A stretch of DNA of 28,088 nt from Promethearchaeota archaeon Loki_b31 (GTDB taxonomy: Archaea > Asgardarchaeota > Lokiarchaeia > Sigyniarchaeales > SOKP01). Positions within the stretch are counted from its first letter, which is position 1, and each line of letters opens with the position of its first letter. The stretch is from contig NJBI01000047.1 of the NCBI GenBank assembly GCA_005222975.1, forward strand, positions 1 through 28,088, in the 5' to 3' direction. The translations under genes were made by a program, and so were the position numbers. This document shows positions 6,127 through 27,974 of the stretch, in pieces. Below the pieces are notes generated by a model. It was not told the origin of the DNA and made no database searches. It saw only the letters and a program-made list of their open reading frames with translations.

Positions 6127-7809
6127 CTAAATTTTTTTTGATTCTTTGAAAATATCAAATATATCCATTTCATAGTCAATTACATCTTCGGGTAAAAGGT
6201 ATGGTTCTTTAATTAGTTTAGCAAGATAATAGATTTTAGATCCTCTTTCTAAGTATTGTAAAACAGTATAAGCGCCTCCTAAATGACTTCCACAACACAA
6301 ACTTCCATGATTTGCAAGTATTACTGCGTTTCGTTCTTCTAAACTTTTTTTTACATTCTCTGCCAATTCTTCACTACCCGCTTCTCCATATTCTGCACAC
6401 AAAACCTCACCTCCTAAATAAGGAACAAGCTCTTCCATTGCGGGAGGTAACGCTAACTTGAGGGTACTAAGTATTGTTGAGTAAATACCATGAGAGTGAA
6501 TGATTGCGTTAACATCTTCACGTTCTTTGTAAATACCTAAATGTAAGTGTTTTTCTACTGAAGGGTTTCTTTCTCCTTCTACTACTTTTCCCTCAAGATT
6601 AATAATTAAAATATCATCTGGTTCCATTTCTTCATAATTTACATTACTAGGGGTGATTAAAACGAATTCATCGTCTCCACTTTTAACTCTAATACTCACA
6701 TTTCCCGCTGATCCTATCACATGCCCATCATTCAATAATCTCTTACAAGTACTAACAATTTCTTTCTTAAGTTTTTTGATTGGCTGGTCTAAAAACTTAT
6801 TTTCATCTTTAAATTCTTCGAAAACTTCGGGATTCAAGATATGTGAAGGAATACCTTTATCTAACCAAATTGTAATATCTTTCAGCAACATATTTGATTG
6901 TCTATTAATTACTTCAACGGTATTTCCTCCAATATGTGGCATTACTATAACATTTTCTAATTCTAAAAATTCATTATCTTCATCGATAGGCTCTAAAGGA
7001 AAGACATCTAAAGCAGCTCCTGCAATTTTATTGCTTTTTAAAGCATCGTATAACTTTTCATAATCTACAAGACTTCCTTTGGCTAAATTAATTAAAAAAG
7101 CTGAACTTTTCATCATTGCTATTCGTTCTTCGTTAATAAGATTATCATTTTCATCAGTTGCAACAGCGTGAATGGTTATAAAGTCGGATTCTTTCATTAA
7201 CGAATCTATATCTGTTTTTCTACCATACTTCTCAATAATTTCGTTAGAAACAAATGGATCATAAATAAGAAATTTTACCCCAAATGGTTTTAAACGATCA
7301 GCAACTTGTCTTCCGATCTGACCAAAACCAATAATACCGATATTTTTGTTTAATAACTCATTTCCCATAAATCTATTATAACATTTTATCCAATCTTCGA
7401 AATCGATAACTTCAAATTCATCACTATGTAAAAATCGATCTAGCTTTATCAAATTTCTTGCTATTGAAACGATTAGTCCAACGGTCAATTCAGCAACAGC
7501 AACGACATTCCTAAGAGGTGTATAAATCACAGGAATGTTATTTTTAGTAGCAGCATCTAAATCAATGTTAAATGGATCCCCCCGGCAAGACACAATCAAT
7601 TTTAAGCTAGTTTGTTCAAATAATTCAGCTTTTTTTAAATCGTCTGCGGCCGTTATAAAAATATCATAACCTTTTAATTTTTCAACCATTTCTTTGACAT
7701 CAAAATAAATATTTCCTGTATCTCTCCAACTCTCGTAAGTGACATCCATTTTCTTTTTTAATTCTTTTAAAACTTCATCAGATATACTTGCAGTAATAAG
7801 TGCTCTCAT
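6127..7809 (-). CDS. Fusion of a D-2-hydroxyacid dehydrogenase (SerA-like) and a class II aldolase (FucA-like)
   Basis: Dehydrogenase motifs GIIGFGQIG, AALDVFPLEP and PHIGG, followed by aldolase motifs GNVSIR, ITPS, PSVE..LH, IIHSH and ILANHG. Confidence 0.92.
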   Translation of the reverse strand: MRALITASISDEVLKELKKKMDVTYESWRDTGNIYFDVKEMVEKLKGYDIFITAADDLKKAELFEQTSLKLIVSCRGDPFNIDLDAATKNNIPVIYTPLRNVVAVAELTVGLIVSIARNLIKLDRFLHSDEFEVIDFEDWIKCYNRFMGNELLNKNIGIIGFGQIGRQVADRLKPFGVKFLIYDPFVSNEIIEKYGRKTDIDSLMKESDFITIHAVATDENDNLINEERIAMMKSSAFLINLAKGSLVDYEKLYDALKSNKIAGAALDVFPLEPIDEDNEFLELENVIVMPHIGGNTVEVINRQSNMLLKDITIWLDKGIPSHILNPEVFEEFKDENKFLDQPIKKLKKEIVSTCKRLLNDGHVIGSAGNVSIRVKSGDDEFVLITPSNVNYEEMEPDDILIINLEGKVVEGERNPSVEKHLHLGIYKEREDVNAIIHSHGIYSTILSTLKLALPPAMEELVPYLGGEVLCAEYGEAGSEELAENVKKSLEERNAVILANHGSLCCGSHLGGAYTVLQYLERGSKIYYLAKLIKEPYLLPEDVIDYEMDIFDIFKESKKI

Positions 7810-22297: not shown

Positions 22298-23866
22298 TTA
22301 ATCTGATTTTTTATTTTGAAGCGTATTGATGTAAGTTTTGTAAAATTTTTTCTCGTTTAAAAGCTTGTATAAATCATTCGATAATTGGTAAATATCTTGA
22401 TAAAACTCATGTCGGTTTAAATCAGGATTCCATTTATTATCTACTTTACACACATTTTCGGCAGCTTTAGCGATATCTGAAAACAATCCCGCTCCCGTAG
22501 CCGCTAATATTGCCGCTCCCAACGATGTAGCCTCTTCAATAACATTTCTGACGCATGTGACACCTAATACATCGGAATAAATTTGATTCCAAAAATCTGA
22601 GCGAGAACCCCCTCCAGTTAGCCTTAATTCTTTTGTTTCAATCCCTAGCTTTCTAAAAACTTCAATATTCTTTTTAACTTCAAATGCTACTCCTTCAAGA
22701 ATCGCTCTAACGATATCTCTTCTTTTATGACCTAAAGATAAACCATAAATTATACCTCTCGCATACGGATTCCAATGTGGTGCTCCAGCACCAACTAAGT
22801 GGGGGATTGCTAATAACCCATTAGCACCAATAGGAGATTTTTCAGCTTCTTCCGTTAGAATTATGTAAGGATCTTGATTTTGTTCTTCAGCTAATATGCT
22901 TTCTTCTTTTCCGAGTTGGTCCCTAAACCACCTTAGAAAAGCCCCACTCGTAAAAATACTCGCTTCTTGGATCCAAGCACCCGGGATTGCGTGACAACTA
23001 CATAGTACTCGCTTTTGGGGATCAAAATTGGGTTTTTCCAAATAAGCTAAAATAAAACTTCCAGTTCCGGTCGTTAATTTTATTCTCCCCGGAGAGACAA
23101 CGCCCACTCCTAGGGCTGCTGCTTGTTGATCCCCGGCACCTGTAATAACCAAGGTTTTTTTATCGAATAAAGTCTCTTCTGTAACGATCTCCCCTATATC
23201 AACTCCGCTTTCAATGGCATCTGGCATTTTATCCAAATCTATTTCTAACTCGGAAGCAATATCTTCTGAATATTTGAGTTTATTTATATCAAATAACATT
23301 GTTCTACTTAAATTACTAAAATCACTAACGAATTTCCCTGTTAGTTTATAGATTATGAAATCTGAAACTAGCAAGAATTTGTGCGTTTTCTGATATATAT
23401 CTGGCTTTTCATCTTTAAACCAAAGAATCTTTGTAGCTGAAAAATACGGATCTATTGTTAAACCTGTAGTGCTATAAATTTTATCTATTCCTATTTTATT
23501 TTTTATAAAGTCTACTTGTTCAGTTGTCCGTCTATCTTGCCAAACTAATGCGTTATGTAATGGCGCCCCTTCTTTATCAACAGGTACGATTGTTTCTCTT
23601 TGACCTTCCAGAAATTAATTTTCTGAAATTTGGTTGGTAATTGAGCAACTTACAATCTCGCTTTTATCTACCCCGCTCTTCTTTACTGCTCGCTCAATCG
23701 TACTTTTAATTGATTTCCACCACACATTAGCATCCTGCTCCACATAAGACGGAGTAGGGTAAAAACTTTCCCATTCTTTATAATCGCTTGCGATTATGGT
23801 TCCAGCTAAATCAAAAATAAATGTTCTACAACCAGTTGTTCCTAAATCTAATGCAGCAACAAACAT
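22298..23866 (-). CDS. FGGY-family kinase (glycerol/xylulose kinase-like), two exons: 23866-23630 and 23599-22298, about 512 aa spliced
   Basis: Exon 1 is MFVAALDLGTTGCR...VEQD...SITNQ. Exon 2 is RETIVPVD...VWQDRR...DPYFSATKILW...SRTMLFD...GDQQAAALG...TGTG...GAPHW...GGGSRS. Both are in the same frame, separated by a 30-nt insert containing TAA. Confidence 0.92.
23600..23629 (-). other. Putative archaeal BHB/BHL-type mRNA intron (30 nt)
   Basis: Insert AUUUCAGAAAAUUAAUUUCUGGAAGGUCAA has a 9-bp stem, a central helix AACC/GGUC and two AAA bulges. Excision restores AAC CAA AGA GAA (NQRE). Confidence 0.8.
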
Positions 23867-23913
23867 AATACACACAATATTTTTTATATAACATATCATA
23901 AAATAATGTTGAT

Positions 23914-24501
23914 TTATTTAATATAATTAGTAAAAAAAGAATTCACTTCATTTTTTATAAAATCTTTAATTCTATTCGGTCTGTTCATTTTCGGGCAGAT
24001 CCAATATGGAAATTCAAAAAGGATAATTCCATTATGATAGAGAAGATAGATTTTAAGAAGATCATTAATTACACCATTTAAAAACGAATCTAGTTGGTTA
24101 ATATTTTTATTAAAATAATTCGGAAAAGTATAATGCTGAATTCCATTATATTCGAATGTTATCCATATAAAATTTTCGCTATGATAATTAAAGGGGATAT
24201 TAACTTCACGATCAAGAAGAAAAATTTTATTATTTTTAATCAAAATCTTGATATAACCAATAGGGAACTGAACTTTTATTACTTTCGAATCAGATTCCAT
24301 TAAATTATCTTTTATTCTATCAATAATCTTCTGAATTTGAAAAGAATTGAAATCATCTATAATATATAAAAACTCGTCAATATCTCTTGATATATCAATA
24401 TCTCTCCTTAACTTATGTCGGAAAGCATTAATTATACATTTTTTTTGTAAAAAAATTTTAACAGCACCATCTGAATGTGCTCGTTGTATGTATTCATCTA
24501 T
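23914..24501 (-). CDS. Hypothetical protein (start uncertain)
   Basis: Called ORF is 23914-24300, but the frame stays open upstream to 24516 (...IDEYIQRAHSDGAVKIFLQ...) with no NTG codon. Confidence 0.5.
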   Translation of the reverse strand: MDEYIQRAHSDGAVKIFLQKKCIINAFRHKLRRDIDISRDIDEFLYIIDDFNSFQIQKIIDRIKDNLMESDSKVIKVQFPIGYIKILIKNNKIFLLDREVNIPFNYHSENFIWITFEYNGIQHYTFPNYFNKNINQLDSFLNGVINDLLKIYLLYHNGIILFEFPYWICPKMNRPNRIKDFIKNEVNSFFTNYIK

Positions 24502-24642
24502 ATATAAAGGAAAATTTTAAGTATCGAATTTTTTCTTTATAAGTTATTATAAGTTATAAGTTAGACTCCAGAACACACTCCCACCAACTTACTTCGCATT
24601 TCCTCAAATTAAACTATTGATATCGCTTATTTGAGTTAAATT

Positions 24643-27027
24643 TTAGAATTTTTTCATTTTTTTTAAAAGTGATATTATTGCTATTGAGAAAATTCCTAAA
24701 AGCATGATAGATATATTATATCCGGGGATTCCGGGGGTTCCAGGTTGAGATGGAATGCTTTTTATAACAATTACACTTTCAATCCCTATATTTCCCGCTC
24801 CATCTTCAGCATAAAATGTAATAGAAATCTCTCCCTGAGGAATACTATCCCATATCCCTTGATTTATTGTGCCAGTTAGACCAGTAAATGAAAAAGTTCC
24901 TGCAACACCTTCTAATGTATACCAAGTTGAGACTAAATTCTCTTCAATAATTGAAATATTAAACTCTGGGGATGTACTCCCGAATATATCATCTTGAATT
25001 GGGGAATTTATCGCAATATTTGGAGCAGTTGTATCTTTTATAACATTTACATCTTCAAATCCTAAATTTCCTAATGAATCATTTGCATAAAACCTTATCG
25101 TTAAGACTCCATCTTCCTTTTGCCCCCATCCTAATTGATTAATAAAGCCTGTTAATCCTGAAAAAGTATAATTTGCTAATCCTCCATCTATTGTATACCA
25201 AGTGGCATTTATTGGAGAAAGATCATTAATTGTAATATTAAAATCGGGGGCGTTAAATCCAAATATTTCGTTCAAAGTTGGTGAAATAATTGCTATCTGT
25301 GGTGTATCATAAGATTTTATCACTTGTACAGTTTCAGAGCCAACGTATCCCTTTGAATCATTCACAAAGAAAGTTAATACTATTTGTCCGGCTCCTTTTT
25401 CATTCCATTCTTCTTTATCGATTACACCATTCAACCCAGTAAATGTAATATTTGTGATTCCATTATCTAAAGTATACCAAGAGTTATTTACATTTCCTTG
25501 ACTTACTGAAATATTAAAAGTGGGACTTAATTCAAATGTATCGTCTTCATTTGGAGAGTTAATTAATATCTGCGGTGAATCCCACCAAATTGGTAAAAAA
25601 TCATATGATCCGCCCAAAATAGCATATGGCGTATCACCAACTCCATCATCGTTCGCATCCACACCTGCGTAAGATGACCAATAATTTCCAATAGAAGAAC
25701 TATTCCATTTATTATTACTACCCAAATCTCTTCCCGGGTTAAATAATGAACTAATAAAATAATTTGCAAAAATCAAATTATTATTTCCACTATAACTAAT
25801 ATAAATTTCAGCGCCATAAGGACCACCTGCATCATCCCTAAAAATATTATTTGAAATATTGTTAAAATTTGATCCGATTCGAACACCATAAGCACCATTA
25901 TCATGAATTTTATTATTTGATATATTGTTAAAATTTGATGATCCGATAATAACACCAGAACCACCATTATTATGTATTTTATTATTTAATATCTTATTAT
26001 AGTCTGTTGTTGCATATACTTCATTTAGGAATAAACCAGAACCAGTATTAAAACTAATTGTATTGTTCAATAATATTATATATCTACTACTTTCAATAAT
26101 AACACCATGATCTCCGTTATTATCACCATTATATGATACTATATTACCTATTACTTCATTATAAAAACCACCTACCAAATACATTGCAGTATCTCCCCCG
26201 TATTTTAGTGTATTGTTTACGATTTTAACGTTATCAGAATTTATTACGTACAATCCATATGCTCCACTTTTACTCCCATTGATTATATTTCTAAAGATCT
26301 TCGAATCGTGGCTATCACCTATCCTTATCCCATATAAGTTTTCTTTTAATATATTATCAGTAATAGTATGATTAACACCTGCAAGATATAATCCATAAGT
26401 ATTTGATATCATCGTATTATTGTAAATTGTAATATTAGAATTGGTAAAGTAAGATTGTACTGCATAATTTCCATTCTTTATAATATTTTTAGAAACATTA
26501 TTATATTGACTGTTCGCATAAAAAAATATACCAATATTAAAACCACCAAGAATGGTATTATTCAGAATAAGGTTGTTATCTGAATTATCTAACCGAATGC
26601 CACTGTAATTATCGTATAGTGTGTTGTTCTCAATTAATCCATTCACAACACCAATCAAACTGATACCTGCATCTCCAAAACTTATTCCTGAATTCCAAAT
26701 TGTAGAATTTTTGATTTTAAAATATATATCTGAATTTTGAATAATAATACAGCTTCCTGACCCTCCTGCGTTAATGTTCAAATCGCTTATAACATAAGGG
26801 TCTGTAGAAGTTCCCTCGCCGGTGCAATTTCCTTCAGCTTTAAAGGTTGCCCAACCGTCATTACCAATTATATGAATCTTTGGTGAAATTTTACTAATTT
26901 TTGGATTTTCAACCATTAAGGTATCTGAATTAAAATTATCACGTAATTGCATATTGTTCACCAAGATTAAGCTTAGAAATATTATGAGTGTAAAAATTAA
27001 ATAAATATTGTTGCTATCTCTCCTCAA
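24643..27027 (-). CDS. Cell-surface protein: right-handed beta-helix (NosD/PbH1), three Ig-like repeats and a Loki-type C-terminal sorting tail
   Basis: N-terminal hydrophobic signal, GxGTxxDPYVI, Asn-rich I..N.I..N repeats, GNYWS.Y.G.D...DGVGDTPY, three ~88-aa repeats and IPGYNI+TM+KKMKKF. TTG start after AGGTGA. Confidence 0.88.
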   Translation of the reverse strand: MRRDSNNIYLIFTLIIFLSLILVNNMQLRDNFNSDTLMVENPKISKISPKIHIIGNDGWATFKAEGNCTGEGTSTDPYVISDLNINAGGSGSCIIIQNSDIYFKIKNSTIWNSGISFGDAGISLIGVVNGLIENNTLYDNYSGIRLDNSDNNLILNNTILGGFNIGIFFYANSQYNNVSKNIIKNGNYAVQSYFTNSNITIYNNTMISNTYGLYLAGVNHTITDNILKENLYGIRIGDSHDSKIFRNIINGSKSGAYGLYVINSDNVKIVNNTLKYGGDTAMYLVGGFYNEVIGNIVSYNGDNNGDHGVIIESSRYIILLNNTISFNTGSGLFLNEVYATTDYNKILNNKIHNNGGSGVIIGSSNFNNISNNKIHDNGAYGVRIGSNFNNISNNIFRDDAGGPYGAEIYISYSGNNNLIFANYFISSLFNPGRDLGSNNKWNSSSIGNYWSSYAGVDANDDGVGDTPYAILGGSYDFLPIWWDSPQILINSPNEDDTFELSPTFNISVSQGNVNNSWYTLDNGITNITFTGLNGVIDKEEWNEKGAGQIVLTFFVNDSKGYVGSETVQVIKSYDTPQIAIISPTLNEIFGFNAPDFNITINDLSPINATWYTIDGGLANYTFSGLTGFINQLGWGQKEDGVLTIRFYANDSLGNLGFEDVNVIKDTTAPNIAINSPIQDDIFGSTSPEFNISIIEENLVSTWYTLEGVAGTFSFTGLTGTINQGIWDSIPQGEISITFYAEDGAGNIGIESVIVIKSIPSQPGTPGIPGYNISIMLLGIFSIAIISLLKKMKKF
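24765..25580 (-). repeat. Three tandem ~88-aa Ig-like domain repeats
   Basis: P.I.I.SP...F....P.FNI.......WYT.......F.GL.G.I....W.......F...D..G..G...V.VIK occurs three times. Confidence 0.9.
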
Positions 27028-27165
27028 TTTAATCACCTAGGATTTTTAAGAAATCATAGTTAACATATCTTTTTAAATCTTCGGTTTTAACCTAACCTAA
27101 TATTATTTTTCCCTTTAATTACTTTCCTTTGTTCCTCTAATTGTATTTTACGATAGTTTTTAGTT

Positions 27166-27843
27166 TTATTTCACTTTTTTAAATCCACATCGTGGACACA
27201 TGAATCCAACTTTGTAATCATTTATCTCTGTTAATGGACCCTTACAAATTGGACATTTTACTTCAGATGTAGGGAACCATTGACCTTTTATGTTAGGTAT
27301 TTGCTTTAGGTCATTAATAAGTTTAAATTTTTCTAAAGCTTTTTTATCAATTTGAATTAATTGTTGTTCCTCAGCGATTGATTTACCTTTAGGTGCTAAA
27401 ACTATTAAAAATTTCATCTTTTTCGGATTATTTAGTAAAGATAAAGTTCGTAATATAGCTCCTTCTTTATATTGATTGAATAATTTACCTAATTCTGGAG
27501 GGGCTAAAGCTACTAATGTTGCCTGTGAGTCTTTAAATTCATTTTTCTCTTTTTGAATTAAGAATTGAAAAATTCTTCCTTCATAATCCATTGCCCATAT
27601 GAAATTCCAAGGCGCGATATCGTAATCTTCATTATTAGGGCCGGTAATTCTTTTAATACATTGAACCAATGAATAATGTTTGAAATTATACAATTTTGAA
27701 AGTAGGTCATCAAAGAATTCTGGTTCAATTACGGGAAATGTTTTGGTTATACTTTTAAGCGATAATAACTTGACTTCAGTTAGCAAATTTTTATTAAGAT
27801 TATCCCAAGGAGTATATGTAAAAACTGAAAAGAATTTATTCAT
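27166..27843 (-). CDS. Hypothetical protein with C-terminal Zn ribbon
   Basis: 225-aa ORF ending CPICKG...FMCPRCG. Confidence 0.82.
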   Translation of the reverse strand: MNKFFSVFTYTPWDNLNKNLLTEVKLLSLKSITKTFPVIEPEFFDDLLSKLYNFKHYSLVQCIKRITGPNNEDYDIAPWNFIWAMDYEGRIFQFLIQKEKNEFKDSQATLVALAPPELGKLFNQYKEGAILRTLSLLNNPKKMKFLIVLAPKGKSIAEEQQLIQIDKKALEKFKLINDLKQIPNIKGQWFPTSEVKCPICKGPLTEINDYKVGFMCPRCGFKKVK

Positions 27844-27974
27844 ATTCTTGTAAAAATGGTTATATTATTTATATTATATTCAGTATCTAAGGAAGTAATT
27901 TTTTTCTATTAATTTTTATTCTTTTCTGAACCGACATTATTCTCACCTTTTTGATACACCGTTGTTAATTTTCT

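What the first reader, a model, noticed from the sequence alone, without database searches (positions are those of the whole stretch)
23592..23649. Candidate bulge-helix-bulge intron in an Asgard protein-coding gene (FGGY kinase)
Seen: the two 'split' FGGY ORFs are one gene in one frame. The family motif TNQRET is broken by 30 nt that read I-S-E-N-stop-F-L-E-G-Q. The pre-mRNA reads GUUGCUC-AAUUACC-AACC-AA^A-UUUCAGAAA-AUUAA-UUUCUGGAA-GGUC-AA^A-GAGAAAC. That gives a 9-bp intron stem (one G-U) with UAA in its loop, a 4-position central helix AACC/GGUC (3 pairs plus an A.C mismatch), a 3-nt AAA element 3' of each central-helix strand and an outer helix GUUGCUC/GAGAAAC (6 of 7 pairs). Established: archaeal splicing endonuclease EndA cuts BHB/BHL motifs after the second bulge nucleotide, RtcB ligates, and mRNA introns of this kind are best known from crenarchaeal cbf5. 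Cutting at exactly those two positions yields AAC CAA AGA GAA = N-Q-R-E. Inference: a metabolic gene depends on tRNA-type mRNA splicing. Pipelines would call it a pseudogene, so such introns may be widely overlooked in this lineage.
Basis: partly seen in the sequence, partly recalled or inferred. Interest (0 to 1): 0.95.

Follow-up and report, generated by a model that had tools for sequence, protein, structure and literature searches.

The report
tRNA-type mini-intron in Asgard kinase gene
A sugar-kinase gene of an Asgard (Promethearchaeota) archaeon is broken by a 30-base hairpin shaped like a tRNA intron; comparison with relatives indicates that it is cut out of the mRNA and that it spreads between genomes together with a replacement first exon.

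Summary
On the minus strand, one FGGY kinase frame (22298-23866) is broken at TNQ|RET by 30 nt (23600-23629) that carry a TAA.

The insert folds as a relaxed bulge-helix-bulge (BHB) motif: a 9-bp inner stem, two AAA bulges and a 4-position central helix.

- **Distribution:** 130+ related genomes lack the insert. G021 has the identical 30 nt. Three more distant MAGs carry a 33-nt version at the same site.
- **Covariation:** between the two versions the bulges and helices are kept, with two compensatory pair changes; one pairs an exon base with an intron base. Only the apical loop differs.
- **Selection:** all five interrupted genes are otherwise intact, with dN/dS 0.06-0.16.
- **Machinery:** the genome has two EndA paralogues and RtcB. 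Three other genes have similar inserts, including its only aIF2-gamma.
- **Mobility:** exon 1 plus intron move as a block, while exon 2 follows the host lineage. A Vsr-like nuclease-type ORF lies just upstream in three of the five genomes.
- **Gap:** no RNA evidence was obtainable.

Verdict: very probably an EndA/RtcB-spliced mRNA intron, a new variant of the cbf5 kind. Earlier agents of this scan reported the same phenomenon at other loci of this genome.

The parts
23630..23866 (-). Exon 1' of the FGGY kinase gene (79 codons, MFVAALDLG...SCSITNQ). It is a foreign allele.
   Evidence: FGGY_N 3-79. It is 96% identical to G021 but only 60-78% identical to the genomes whose exon 2 is 91-100% identical. 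dN/dS against G021 is 0.066.
23600..23629 (-). 30-nt mini-intron, phase 0. Its TAA (23615-23617) lies in the apical loop.
   Evidence: Absent from the orthologues of 130+ relatives. 30/30 identical in G021 although dS is 0.16-0.23. Removing it restores TNQRET.
23632..23635 (-). Central helix H, 5' strand (AACC), in exon 1.
   Evidence: Pairs with GGUC as 3 pairs plus A.C. In the 33-nt alleles it is AAUC/GAUU, 4 of 4 pairs, with the compensatory change C-G to U-A.
23629..23631 (-). 5' bulge AAA. The predicted cut lies between 23630 and 23629.
   Evidence: Invariant in all five intron-bearing alleles. The cut after the second bulge base follows the rule stated in PMC2738675.
23606..23628 (-). 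Inner helix h' (UUUCAGAAA / UUUCUGGAA, 9 bp with one G-U) and the loop AUUAA.
   Evidence: Fold. The six outer pairs are kept in the 33-nt alleles with A-U to G-C and U.G to U-A changes, while the apical part differs in sequence and length.
23602..23605 (-). Central helix H, 3' strand (GGUC), in the intron.
23599..23601 (-). 3' bulge AAA. The predicted cut lies between 23600 and 23599. The third base is the first base of exon 2.
   Evidence: Invariant in the five alleles. The closest intron-less relatives have C, not A, at the first exon 2 base.
22298..23599 (-). Exon 2 of the FGGY kinase gene (433 codons plus the stop). This is the host-lineage allele.
   Evidence: FGGY_N 77-245 and FGGY_C. 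It is 94-96% identical to intron-less relatives. dN/dS against G021 is 0.095.
23914..24300 (-). 128-aa ORF: a truncated copy of the C-terminal Vsr/DUF559-like nuclease-type domain. Its stop is 48 nt upstream of exon 1'.
   Evidence: In G021 it is the C-terminus of a 1790-aa ORF. A 68% identical domain sits directly upstream of exon 1' in SCS4bin.30. The AF2 model has pLDDT 83. The best folds are Vsr (Z 5.9) and I-Bth0305I (Z 5.5). The atlas neighbours carry DUF2726 or DUF559. There is no Pfam hit.
23600..27159 (-). A roughly 3.5-kb block that replaces the native promoter and exon 1 of intron-less relatives. It holds a 797-aa beta-helix surface-protein ORF (24643-27036), the nuclease-type remnant, exon 1' and the intron.
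   Evidence: The relatives' upstream neighbour lies at 27160-27880 (94% identical), where in G017 it ends 94 nt before the kinase start. Homology to relatives is lost between 23620 and 27160.
23643..23649 (-). Not supported as part of the motif.
   Evidence: 6 of 7 pairs in G000, but not adjacent to H. 76% of cells are paired across the alleles, one pair is broken and none is compensated.

Best explanation
The 30 nt at 23600-23629 (minus strand) are an archaeal tRNA-type (bulge-helix-bulge, relaxed HBh') intron inside the coding sequence of an FGGY carbohydrate kinase gene.

**Mechanism.** In the pre-mRNA, exon bases AACC pair with intron bases GGUC, and a 9-bp intron hairpin stacks on this helix. 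That presents two AAA bulges on opposite strands. The heteromeric splicing endonuclease EndA cuts after the second base of each bulge. RtcB then joins the exons to give ..AAC CAA|AGA GAA.. (TNQRET) and a full-length 512-aa kinase. Unspliced RNA ends at the TAA in the hairpin loop.

**What is shown:**
- the insert and its geometry;
- its conservation and covariation;
- purifying selection on both exons in five interrupted alleles;
- the presence of the enzyme genes;
- horizontal movement of the exon 1' plus intron block.

**What is inferred:**
- cleavage and ligation themselves;
- the spread of the block by a homing-like double-strand-break repair, possibly driven by the Vsr-like nuclease-type ORF just upstream.
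For: 1. The insert lies precisely at a conserved motif and is absent from the orthologues of 130+ relatives.
2. Five interrupted alleles were found in at least three host backgrounds: G000, G021 (ABR02), SCS4bin.30, DZ1B.199 and QM1B.325. All have 79 plus about 432 intact codons. dN/dS is 0.066 and 0.095 for G000 against G021, and 0.155 and 0.067 for SCS4bin.30 against DZ1B.199.
3. The intron core is under constraint.
   - G000 and G021 show 0 of 30 changes at dS 0.16-0.23, where about 5 are expected (Poisson P about 0.01).
   - SCS4bin.30 and DZ1B.199 show 0 of 19 changes in the helices and bulges but 3 of 14 in the loop, at an exon 1 dS of 0.63.
4. The 30-nt and 33-nt versions covary.
   - Central-helix pair: C-G to U-A, from a synonymous exon change AAC to AAU matched by an intron change.
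   - Inner-helix pair: A-U to G-C.
   - U.G to U-A; both AAA bulges are invariant.
   - 88% of cells are paired, against 35-59% when the partners are slid.
5. BHB geometry at the exact boundaries is expected by chance about 3e-4 of the time.
6. The genome has two EndA paralogues and RtcB, and 12 of the 23 tRNA genes that aragorn detected have introns. Asgard EndA is described as (alpha-beta)2 with the L1 loop that gives broad specificity (PMC5829648).
7. The same genome holds three further inserts of this kind.
   - An AAA_5 ATPase gene (C45:8619-8648), with central-helix covariation UUCG/CGAA to UUUG/CAAA in relatives.
   - An AMP-binding ligase gene (C83:759-788), with a G-C / G.U / A-U series.
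   - The only aIF2-gamma gene, whose P-loop GHVDHG|KT is split by 29 nt with a frameshift.
8. The length (30-33 nt), the relaxed motif and the cut position match the cbf5 introns, which are 16-44 bp (PMC2738675).
Against: - No spliced transcript was seen. The RNA runs that hold part of the stretch carry only an intron-less relative's allele.
- In G000 the central helix has an A.C mismatch next to the 3' bulge, and there is no outer helix, so the 3' site is not a closed bulge. Cleavage therefore depends on a broad-specificity enzyme whose range is untested in Asgard archaea.
- The MFE fold prefers another register.
- Only three distinct intron sequences exist, so the covariation statistics are weak (52 of 500 shuffles reach the observed score).
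- Exon 2 divergence between G000 and G021 may partly predate the arrival of the intron, because the block moves horizontally.
Confidence: 0.85

Rival explanations
1. The gene is dead. The 30 nt are a scar of an illegitimate recombination or insertion event, and the hairpin has no function.
For: The insert coincides with a recombination breakpoint and a 3.5-kb replacement of the upstream region. The same intergenic site carries varied insertions and orphan exon 1 fragments in other genomes. G000 has three other FGGY paralogues.
Against: dN/dS is 0.06-0.16 in both exons among five interrupted alleles, and there is no second lesion in about 2,500 codons. The helices and bulges of the insert are invariant or compensated, while the loop and the synonymous sites change. 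The exon upstream of the stop is under selection too (7 synonymous and 2 non-synonymous changes).
Confidence: 0.05
2. The insert stays in the mRNA and the ribosome deals with it. This would be either programmed bypassing from the CAA before the insert to the CAA at its end (as in T4 gene 60 or mitochondrial byp elements), or stop-codon read-through that adds 10 residues.
For: In G000 the insert is in frame. It is flanked by matching CAA-A words and contains a hairpin with a stop.
Against: The 33-nt version ends ..GAU UAA, so it has no matching landing codon, and it carries two stops. The similar inserts in this genome include a 29-nt insert that shifts the frame, and the one in the AMP-binding gene has no matching codons. 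What is conserved is the exon-intron helix and the two bulges. A bypass or read-through has no use for these.
Confidence: 0.03
3. The insert is removed from the RNA, but not by EndA and RtcB. Another nuclease-ligase pair would do it, or an excision at the DNA level in part of the population.
For: No enzyme assay exists for any Asgard EndA. The 3' site is not a canonical closed bulge.
Against: The conserved features are exactly those of the EndA substrate: two 3-nt bulges 4 bp apart, with cuts after the second base giving the right frame. DNA contigs of an independent run carry the insert. No other copy of the 30 nt exists in the genome, so it is not a small transposon.
Confidence: 0.05

Closest known systems
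cbf5 pre-mRNA intron of Desulfurococcales and Sulfolobales (Watanabe 2002; Yoshinari 2006; Yokobori 2009, PMC2738675)
   Same: A short intron (16-44 bp there, 30-33 nt here) inside a coding sequence, with an unconventional or relaxed BHB. The cut falls between the second and third bulge residues. It needs a hetero-oligomeric EndA and shows gain and loss among relatives.
   Different: It is in another phylum (Asgard/Promethearchaeota) and in a metabolic kinase. It is one of several interrupted genes in the same genome. It is recent and patchy: 5 of about 190 genomes looked at. It is inherited as a block with a foreign first exon, often with a nuclease-type ORF, whereas the cbf5 paper saw no mobility element. 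Splicing is shown for cbf5 and not here.
Non-canonical BHB introns of Asgard tRNA genes (bioRxiv 10.64898/2026.10.13.758758; PMC5829648)
   Same: The same predicted enzymes and the same motif rules, including the dependence of half of the motif on exon sequence. These lineages have many introns and repeated gains.
   Different: The host RNA is an mRNA. The exon half of the helix must therefore also encode Asn-Gln, and an exon change seen here is synonymous and compensated in the intron. That preprint does not treat protein-coding genes.
Collaborative or trans homing of an endonuclease-less intron with a neighbouring free-standing homing endonuclease (T4 mobE/I-TevIII, PMC2790892; cyanophage F-CphI/psbA, PMC6083498; review PMC3984707)
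   Same: An intron without its own ORF lies at a conserved site next to a separate nuclease-type gene, and both are co-inherited with flanking exon sequence. An intron that splits a target site would protect the carrier.
   Different: Those introns are self-splicing group I introns in phages. Here the intron is protein-spliced and the nuclease activity is unproven: the fold match is weak, an acidic residue is replaced and the G000 copy is truncated. Two intron-bearing genomes lack the ORF nearby.
HAC1/XBP1 unconventional mRNA splicing (IRE1 cleavage and RtcB/Trl1 ligation; from own knowledge, and RtcB-HAC1 is reference 5 of PMC5829648)
   Same: Protein-only, spliceosome-free removal of a short intron from an mRNA at stem-loop sites, with RtcB-type ligation. 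The unspliced form gives a truncated or different product.
   Different: Another nuclease and another motif. That splicing is regulated by stress; no regulation is shown here.

Membership tests
Archaeal BHB (EndA-type) intron | [quoted passage not shown] | tested here: met
   AACC-AAA...GGUC-AAA in G000 (3 pairs plus A.C). AAUC-AAA...GAUU-AAA, 4 of 4 pairs, in the 33-nt alleles.
Archaeal BHB (EndA-type) intron | Cuts after the second base of each bulge give the correct mature sequence | tested here: met
   Cuts after 23630 and after 23600 give AAC CAA AGA GAA, which reads TNQRET as in all intron-less orthologues.
Archaeal BHB (EndA-type) intron | Inner helix h' formed by intron sequence | tested here: met
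   9 bp in G000. Six pairs are shared by all alleles, 100% paired, with one compensatory change.
Archaeal BHB (EndA-type) intron | Outer helix h closing the 3' bulge (canonical hBHBh') | tested here: not met
   There is no helix adjacent to H. The distant GUUGCUC/GAGAAAC pairing is not conserved. The motif is therefore the relaxed HBh' form, which broad-specificity (alpha-beta)2 enzymes cut (PMC5829648).
Archaeal BHB (EndA-type) intron | Covariation supporting the helices | tested here: met
   Two pairs changed on both sides and one changed on one side, among only three distinct sequences. The statistical weight is small (52 of 500 shuffles).
Archaeal BHB (EndA-type) intron | Splicing endonuclease and RNA ligase encoded by the organism | tested here: met
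   Two PF01974 paralogues of about 200 aa and one RtcB. The L1 specificity loop was not examined.
Archaeal BHB (EndA-type) intron | Spliced RNA or excised intron observed, or cleavage in vitro | not testable with these tools
   The RNA runs held only an intron-less relative's allele.
FGGY carbohydrate kinase | FGGY_N and FGGY_C domains in one chain | tested here: met
   Pfam: FGGY_N 3-79 before the insert, 77-245 after it, then FGGY_C 3-197. The chain is continuous only if the 30 nt are removed.
Homing endonuclease of the Vsr-like / EDxHD / PD-(D/E)xK kind (the upstream ORF) | Nuclease fold and catalytic residues | tested here: inconclusive
   VIA-align: Vsr Z 5.9 and I-Bth0305I Z 5.5, both under the level the tool calls reliable. 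The atlas neighbours carry DUF2726 or DUF559 at score 0.91-0.92. The motif E-Y-N-G-x-Q-H is invariant in the family, but the Asp of the family's ELD motif is Asn in G000. No hit in Pfam or in the PDB sequence search. The G000 copy is a truncated remnant.
Homing endonuclease of the Vsr-like / EDxHD / PD-(D/E)xK kind (the upstream ORF) | Cuts the intron-less target site and is co-inherited with the intron | tested here: inconclusive
   The ORF is directly upstream of exon 1' in G000, G021 and SCS4bin.30, but not within the roughly 1.2 kb of upstream sequence available in DZ1B.199 and QM1B.325. In G008 an insertion that carries it begins exactly at the N|Q site. Cleavage cannot be tested here.
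Programmed translational bypass (gene 60 / byp type) | Matching take-off and landing codons flanking the gap | tested here: not met
   CAA and CAA match in G000, but the 33-nt version ends GAU UAA.

The most novel reading that the evidence does not exclude
In this group of Asgard archaea, tRNA-type mini-introns are mobile elements of protein-coding genes. A tiny EndA-spliced intron, a replacement first exon with its promoter, and often a Vsr-like nuclease-type gene move together into intron-less alleles by a homing-like gene conversion whose crossover lies at the intron. Several genes, among them the essential aIF2-gamma, would then depend on protein-catalysed mRNA splicing in the closest prokaryotic relatives of eukaryotes.
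Probability: 0.4. Interest if true: 0.9.

Novelty: new variant of a known kind. Interest (0 to 1): 0.8.

Why it matters
In the papers I could search, EndA-dependent splicing inside an archaeal coding sequence is documented for one gene, cbf5, in Crenarchaeota. None reports it for Asgard archaea.

- **Several mRNAs need splicing.** This locus, with three others I checked in the same genome, indicates that an Asgard archaeon has to cut and rejoin several ordinary mRNAs with its tRNA-splicing enzymes.
- **Annotation.** Pipelines will call such genes pseudogenes or split genes. That distorts metabolic reconstructions and completeness estimates for these MAGs.
- **Intron spread.** The mosaic alleles give a concrete, testable picture of how an intron too small to encode anything can still spread. 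This bears on the open question of how introns colonise coding genes.

Tried and rejected
- **RNA evidence.** Four runs were laid. The RNA-labelled runs X19 and X20 hold contigs of an intron-less relative (207 nt replaced by 177 others), and X18 stops at the insert. Nothing can be said about splicing of this allele.
- **Genome-wide census.** I scanned G000 for BHB-shaped segments whose removal merges two open frames. Counts were no higher than with the 3' cut shifted by 1-2 nt (18 against 12-17 under strict rules), because adjacent genes dominate. The scan is not a valid census.
  - Two good-looking hits proved to be adjacent complete genes: C13:12941 lies between two HGD-D genes, and C75:57270 between two TldD/PmbA genes.
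- **Small repeated element.** blastn-short finds no second copy of the 30 or 58 nt in the genome.
- **Rfam.** No match at E up to 1 in 23450-23950.
- **The upstream ORF.** No Pfam hit, no PDB sequence match with a 35-sequence profile and no Foldseek match at E 0.001 or better.
- **Exon 1 tree**. It is too short to resolve. The 30-nt and 33-nt intron alleles do not group together, so a single origin of the intron is not shown.
Full report
**What is in the sequence.** The feature lies on the minus strand. Translating 22298-23899 gives one frame with a single stop..SCSITNQ ISEN*FLEGQ RETIVPVD... Pfam finds FGGY_N positions 3-79 before the break, then FGGY_N 77-245 and FGGY_C after it, so this is one kinase gene broken in its TNQRET motif. 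An alignment with 23 orthologues of the same genus shows an insert of exactly 30 nt, 23600-23629. A CAAA repeat leaves the boundary ambiguous by up to 4 nt. The window is the whole contig C8 of a 3.5-Mb MAG that is 92% complete. Records of close relatives are titled Promethearchaeota or Promethearchaeia, so the organism is an Asgard archaeon.

**Geometry.** The RNA reads AACC-AAA-UUUCAGAAA-AUUAA-UUUCUGGAA-GGUC-AAA.
- This is the correct handedness for an EndA substrate. Each strand of the 4-position central helix lies 5' of a 3-nt bulge, the inner helix is made of intron sequence, and the cut falls after the second bulge base. That is the rule given for the cbf5 introns (PMC2738675).
- Those cuts give AAC CAA|AGA GAA.
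- The central helix has 3 pairs and an A.C mismatch.
- The MFE fold (-12 kcal/mol, z -2.05) contains the 9-bp stem but uses the neighbouring ACC/GGU register.
- In this 31.5% G+C genome, a 30-nt segment with a perfect stem of at least 9 bp, at least 3 of 4 central pairs and cuts at given boundaries (five registers allowed) is expected about 3e-4 of the time.

**The insert is real DNA.** It is present, 30 of 30 identical, in a second MAG (G021, isolate ABR02). A contig of an independent DNA run covers 23574-23861 without a difference.

**More alleles, and covariation.** Of the 135 genomes of the family, only G000 and G021 carry the 30-nt insert. A scan of species-representative genomes found three more interrupted alleles at the same codon boundary, each with a 33-nt insert: SCS4bin.30, DZ1B.199 and QM1B.325.
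- Aligned with G000 (A2), both AAA bulges are invariant.
- The central helix becomes AAUC/GAUU, 4 of 4 pairs. The C-G pair becomes U-A through a synonymous exon change (AAC to AAU) and a matching intron change.
- One inner-helix pair changes from A-U to G-C and one from U.G to U-A.
- The apical part differs in sequence and length.
- 88% of cells pair, against 35-59% when partners are slid. With only three distinct sequences, 52 of 500 shuffles reach the observed score.
- The outer helix gains no support (76% of cells paired, one pair broken).

**The interrupted genes are alive.** All five alleles have 79 plus about 432 open codons.

| Pair of alleles | Exon | dS | dN/dS | Changes |
|---|---|---|---|---|
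| G000 vs G021 | exon 1 | 0.16 | 0.066 | 7 synonymous, 2 non-synonymous |
| G000 vs G021 | exon 2 | 0.23 | 0.095 | 55 synonymous, 22 non-synonymous |
| SCS4bin.30 vs DZ1B.199 | exon 1 | 0.63 | 0.155 | |
| SCS4bin.30 vs DZ1B.199 | exon 2 | 1.8 | 0.067 | |

 Selection on exon 1, which lies upstream of the stop, makes sense only if the whole protein is made.

The intron core is constrained as well.
- G000 and G021 show no change in 30 nt, where about 5 are expected at the synonymous rate (Poisson P about 0.01).
- SCS4bin.30 and DZ1B.199 show no change in the 19 helix and bulge positions but 3 in the 14 loop positions.

**Machinery and context.**
- G000 encodes two EndA paralogues of about 200 aa and RtcB.
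- Of the 23 tRNA genes that aragorn detected, 12 have introns.
- Asgard EndA is described as (alpha-beta)2 with the L1 loop that confers broad specificity (PMC5829648).

Earlier notes of this scan reported similar inserts at other loci of this genome. I treated them as leads and checked three myself.
- An AAA_5 ATPase gene (C45:8619-8648) and an AMP-binding ligase gene (C83:759-788) are each split by 30 nt of the same architecture. Pfam coordinates are contiguous across the break.
- Most relatives lack these two inserts. Some distant ones carry them, with compensatory changes: UUCG/CGAA to UUUG/CAAA in the central helix of one, and G-C / G.U / A-U in the inner stem of the other.
- The only aIF2-gamma gene has its P-loop GHVDHG|KT split by 29 nt, with a frameshift.

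An organism that needs aIF2-gamma must remove such inserts.

**Rivals.**
- A dead gene with a scar is contradicted by the selection data and by the constrained core.
- Ribosomal bypass fits the CAA..CAA flanks of G000, but the 33-nt version has no landing codon and two stops.
- Read-through fails for the same reason, and because sister inserts shift the frame.
- A two-piece protein is unlikely: the first possible start codon in exon 2 lies 75 codons downstream.
- A small transposon is excluded, because there is no second copy.

**How it got there.** Exon 2 and everything downstream are 91-100% identical to the intron-less genomes G009, G017, G027 and G005. From the insert upstream, identity falls to 60-78%, and beyond the start codon it is lost.
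- The relatives' upstream neighbour, a 225-aa zinc-ribbon ORF, lies at 27160-27880. About 3.5 kb have therefore replaced the native promoter and exon 1.
- The same mosaic holds for the 33-nt lineage. The nearest exon 1 sequences are other intron-bearers (85.6%, the next only 72%), whereas the nearest exon 2 sequences are intron-less genomes (88%).
- The exon 1' plus intron block has therefore entered at least three host backgrounds, with a crossover at the intron.

**The nuclease-type ORF.** Directly upstream of exon 1' lies a 128-aa ORF.
- In G021 it is the C-terminus of a 1790-aa protein.
- SCS4bin.30 has a 68% identical copy in the same place; DZ1B.199 and QM1B.325 do not.
- The domain has no Pfam family. 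It has 93 representative relatives, usually at the C-terminus, and an invariant E-Y-N-G-x-Q-H motif.
- Its model (pLDDT 83) is most like Vsr (Z 5.9) and the homing endonuclease I-Bth0305I (Z 5.5). Atlas neighbours carry DUF2726 or DUF559. All of this is weak, and an acidic residue of the family is Asn here.
- In G008 the old exon 1 survives next to the zinc-ribbon gene. It is cut off exactly at N|Q by an insertion that carries a 1049-aa homologue, while an intact intron-less gene with an exon 1'-type 5' end lies on another contig.

**Reading of the mobility.** This fits a homing-like break at the TNQRET-coding site, with the intron protecting carriers. It would resemble collaborative homing in phages (PMC2790892, PMC6083498). 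An integrative element that brings its own 5' gene end is an alternative. I put the homing reading at about 0.4.

**Verdict.** The missing piece is RNA. The mechanism is of the known cbf5 kind. The host lineage, the number of genes affected and the mobile block are new relative to the papers I could search.

Noticed in passing
L175 (G004:C121:5500-14400), L176 (G138:C95), L177 (G099:C75), L074 (G008:C4): The gap between the zinc-ribbon gene and the FGGY kinase gene is an insertion hot spot. Orphan fragments of kinase exon 1 sit next to the zinc-ribbon gene (matches listed). They are followed by 1.4-8 kb of varied cargo (a subtilase-like protein, membrane proteins, a 1009-aa PAS histidine kinase), then an intact intron-less kinase gene.
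   Followed up: partly
G000:C32, minus strand, about 7170-7272: The only aIF2-gamma gene of the genome has its P-loop GHVDHG|KTT split by a 29-nt insert that shifts the frame. AUGG/CUAU can form the central helix.
   Followed up: partly
G000:C13:12941 (minus strand; L068): A 32-nt segment with a very good BHB shape (central helix AGAG/CUCU, 9 of 10 inner-stem pairs) lies between two complete HGD-D (2-hydroxyacyl-CoA dehydratase) reading frames. Removing it would fuse them in frame. Whether this is a fused, spliced product or a chance hairpin between two genes is unresolved.
   Followed up: partly
L031 3487-8859 (G021:C191): A 1790-aa ORF with an acidic N-terminal tandem repeat (DFDPNDTEE..), several copies of a roughly 150-aa internal repeat, and the nuclease-type domain at its C-terminus. 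G000 keeps only the last ~200 codons or fewer as an open frame.
   Followed up: partly
window 24643-27036 (minus strand): A 797-aa secreted right-handed beta-helix / Ig-like repeat protein with a C-terminal membrane anchor lies inside the block that is absent from the closest intron-less relatives.
   Followed up: no
G159 (SCS4bin.30): C152:1-81, C152:3109-3285, C39:5342-5413: The genome with the 33-nt intron also holds three short orphan pieces of kinase exon 1. At the DNA level some are 82-94% identical to the G000 type of exon 1' (there labelled G112), which suggests repeated invasions.
   Followed up: no
whole genome G000: aragorn finds only 23 tRNA genes, 12 of them with introns. This is far fewer than a full set, so many tRNA genes are probably too interrupted to be recognised.
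   Followed up: no
L101 (DATKTW010000106.1): A contig titled Candidatus Nanopelagicaceae bacterium carries a kinase gene 80% identical to this Asgard gene, with the same neighbours. It is probably a mis-binned or mislabelled Promethearchaeota contig.
   Followed up: no
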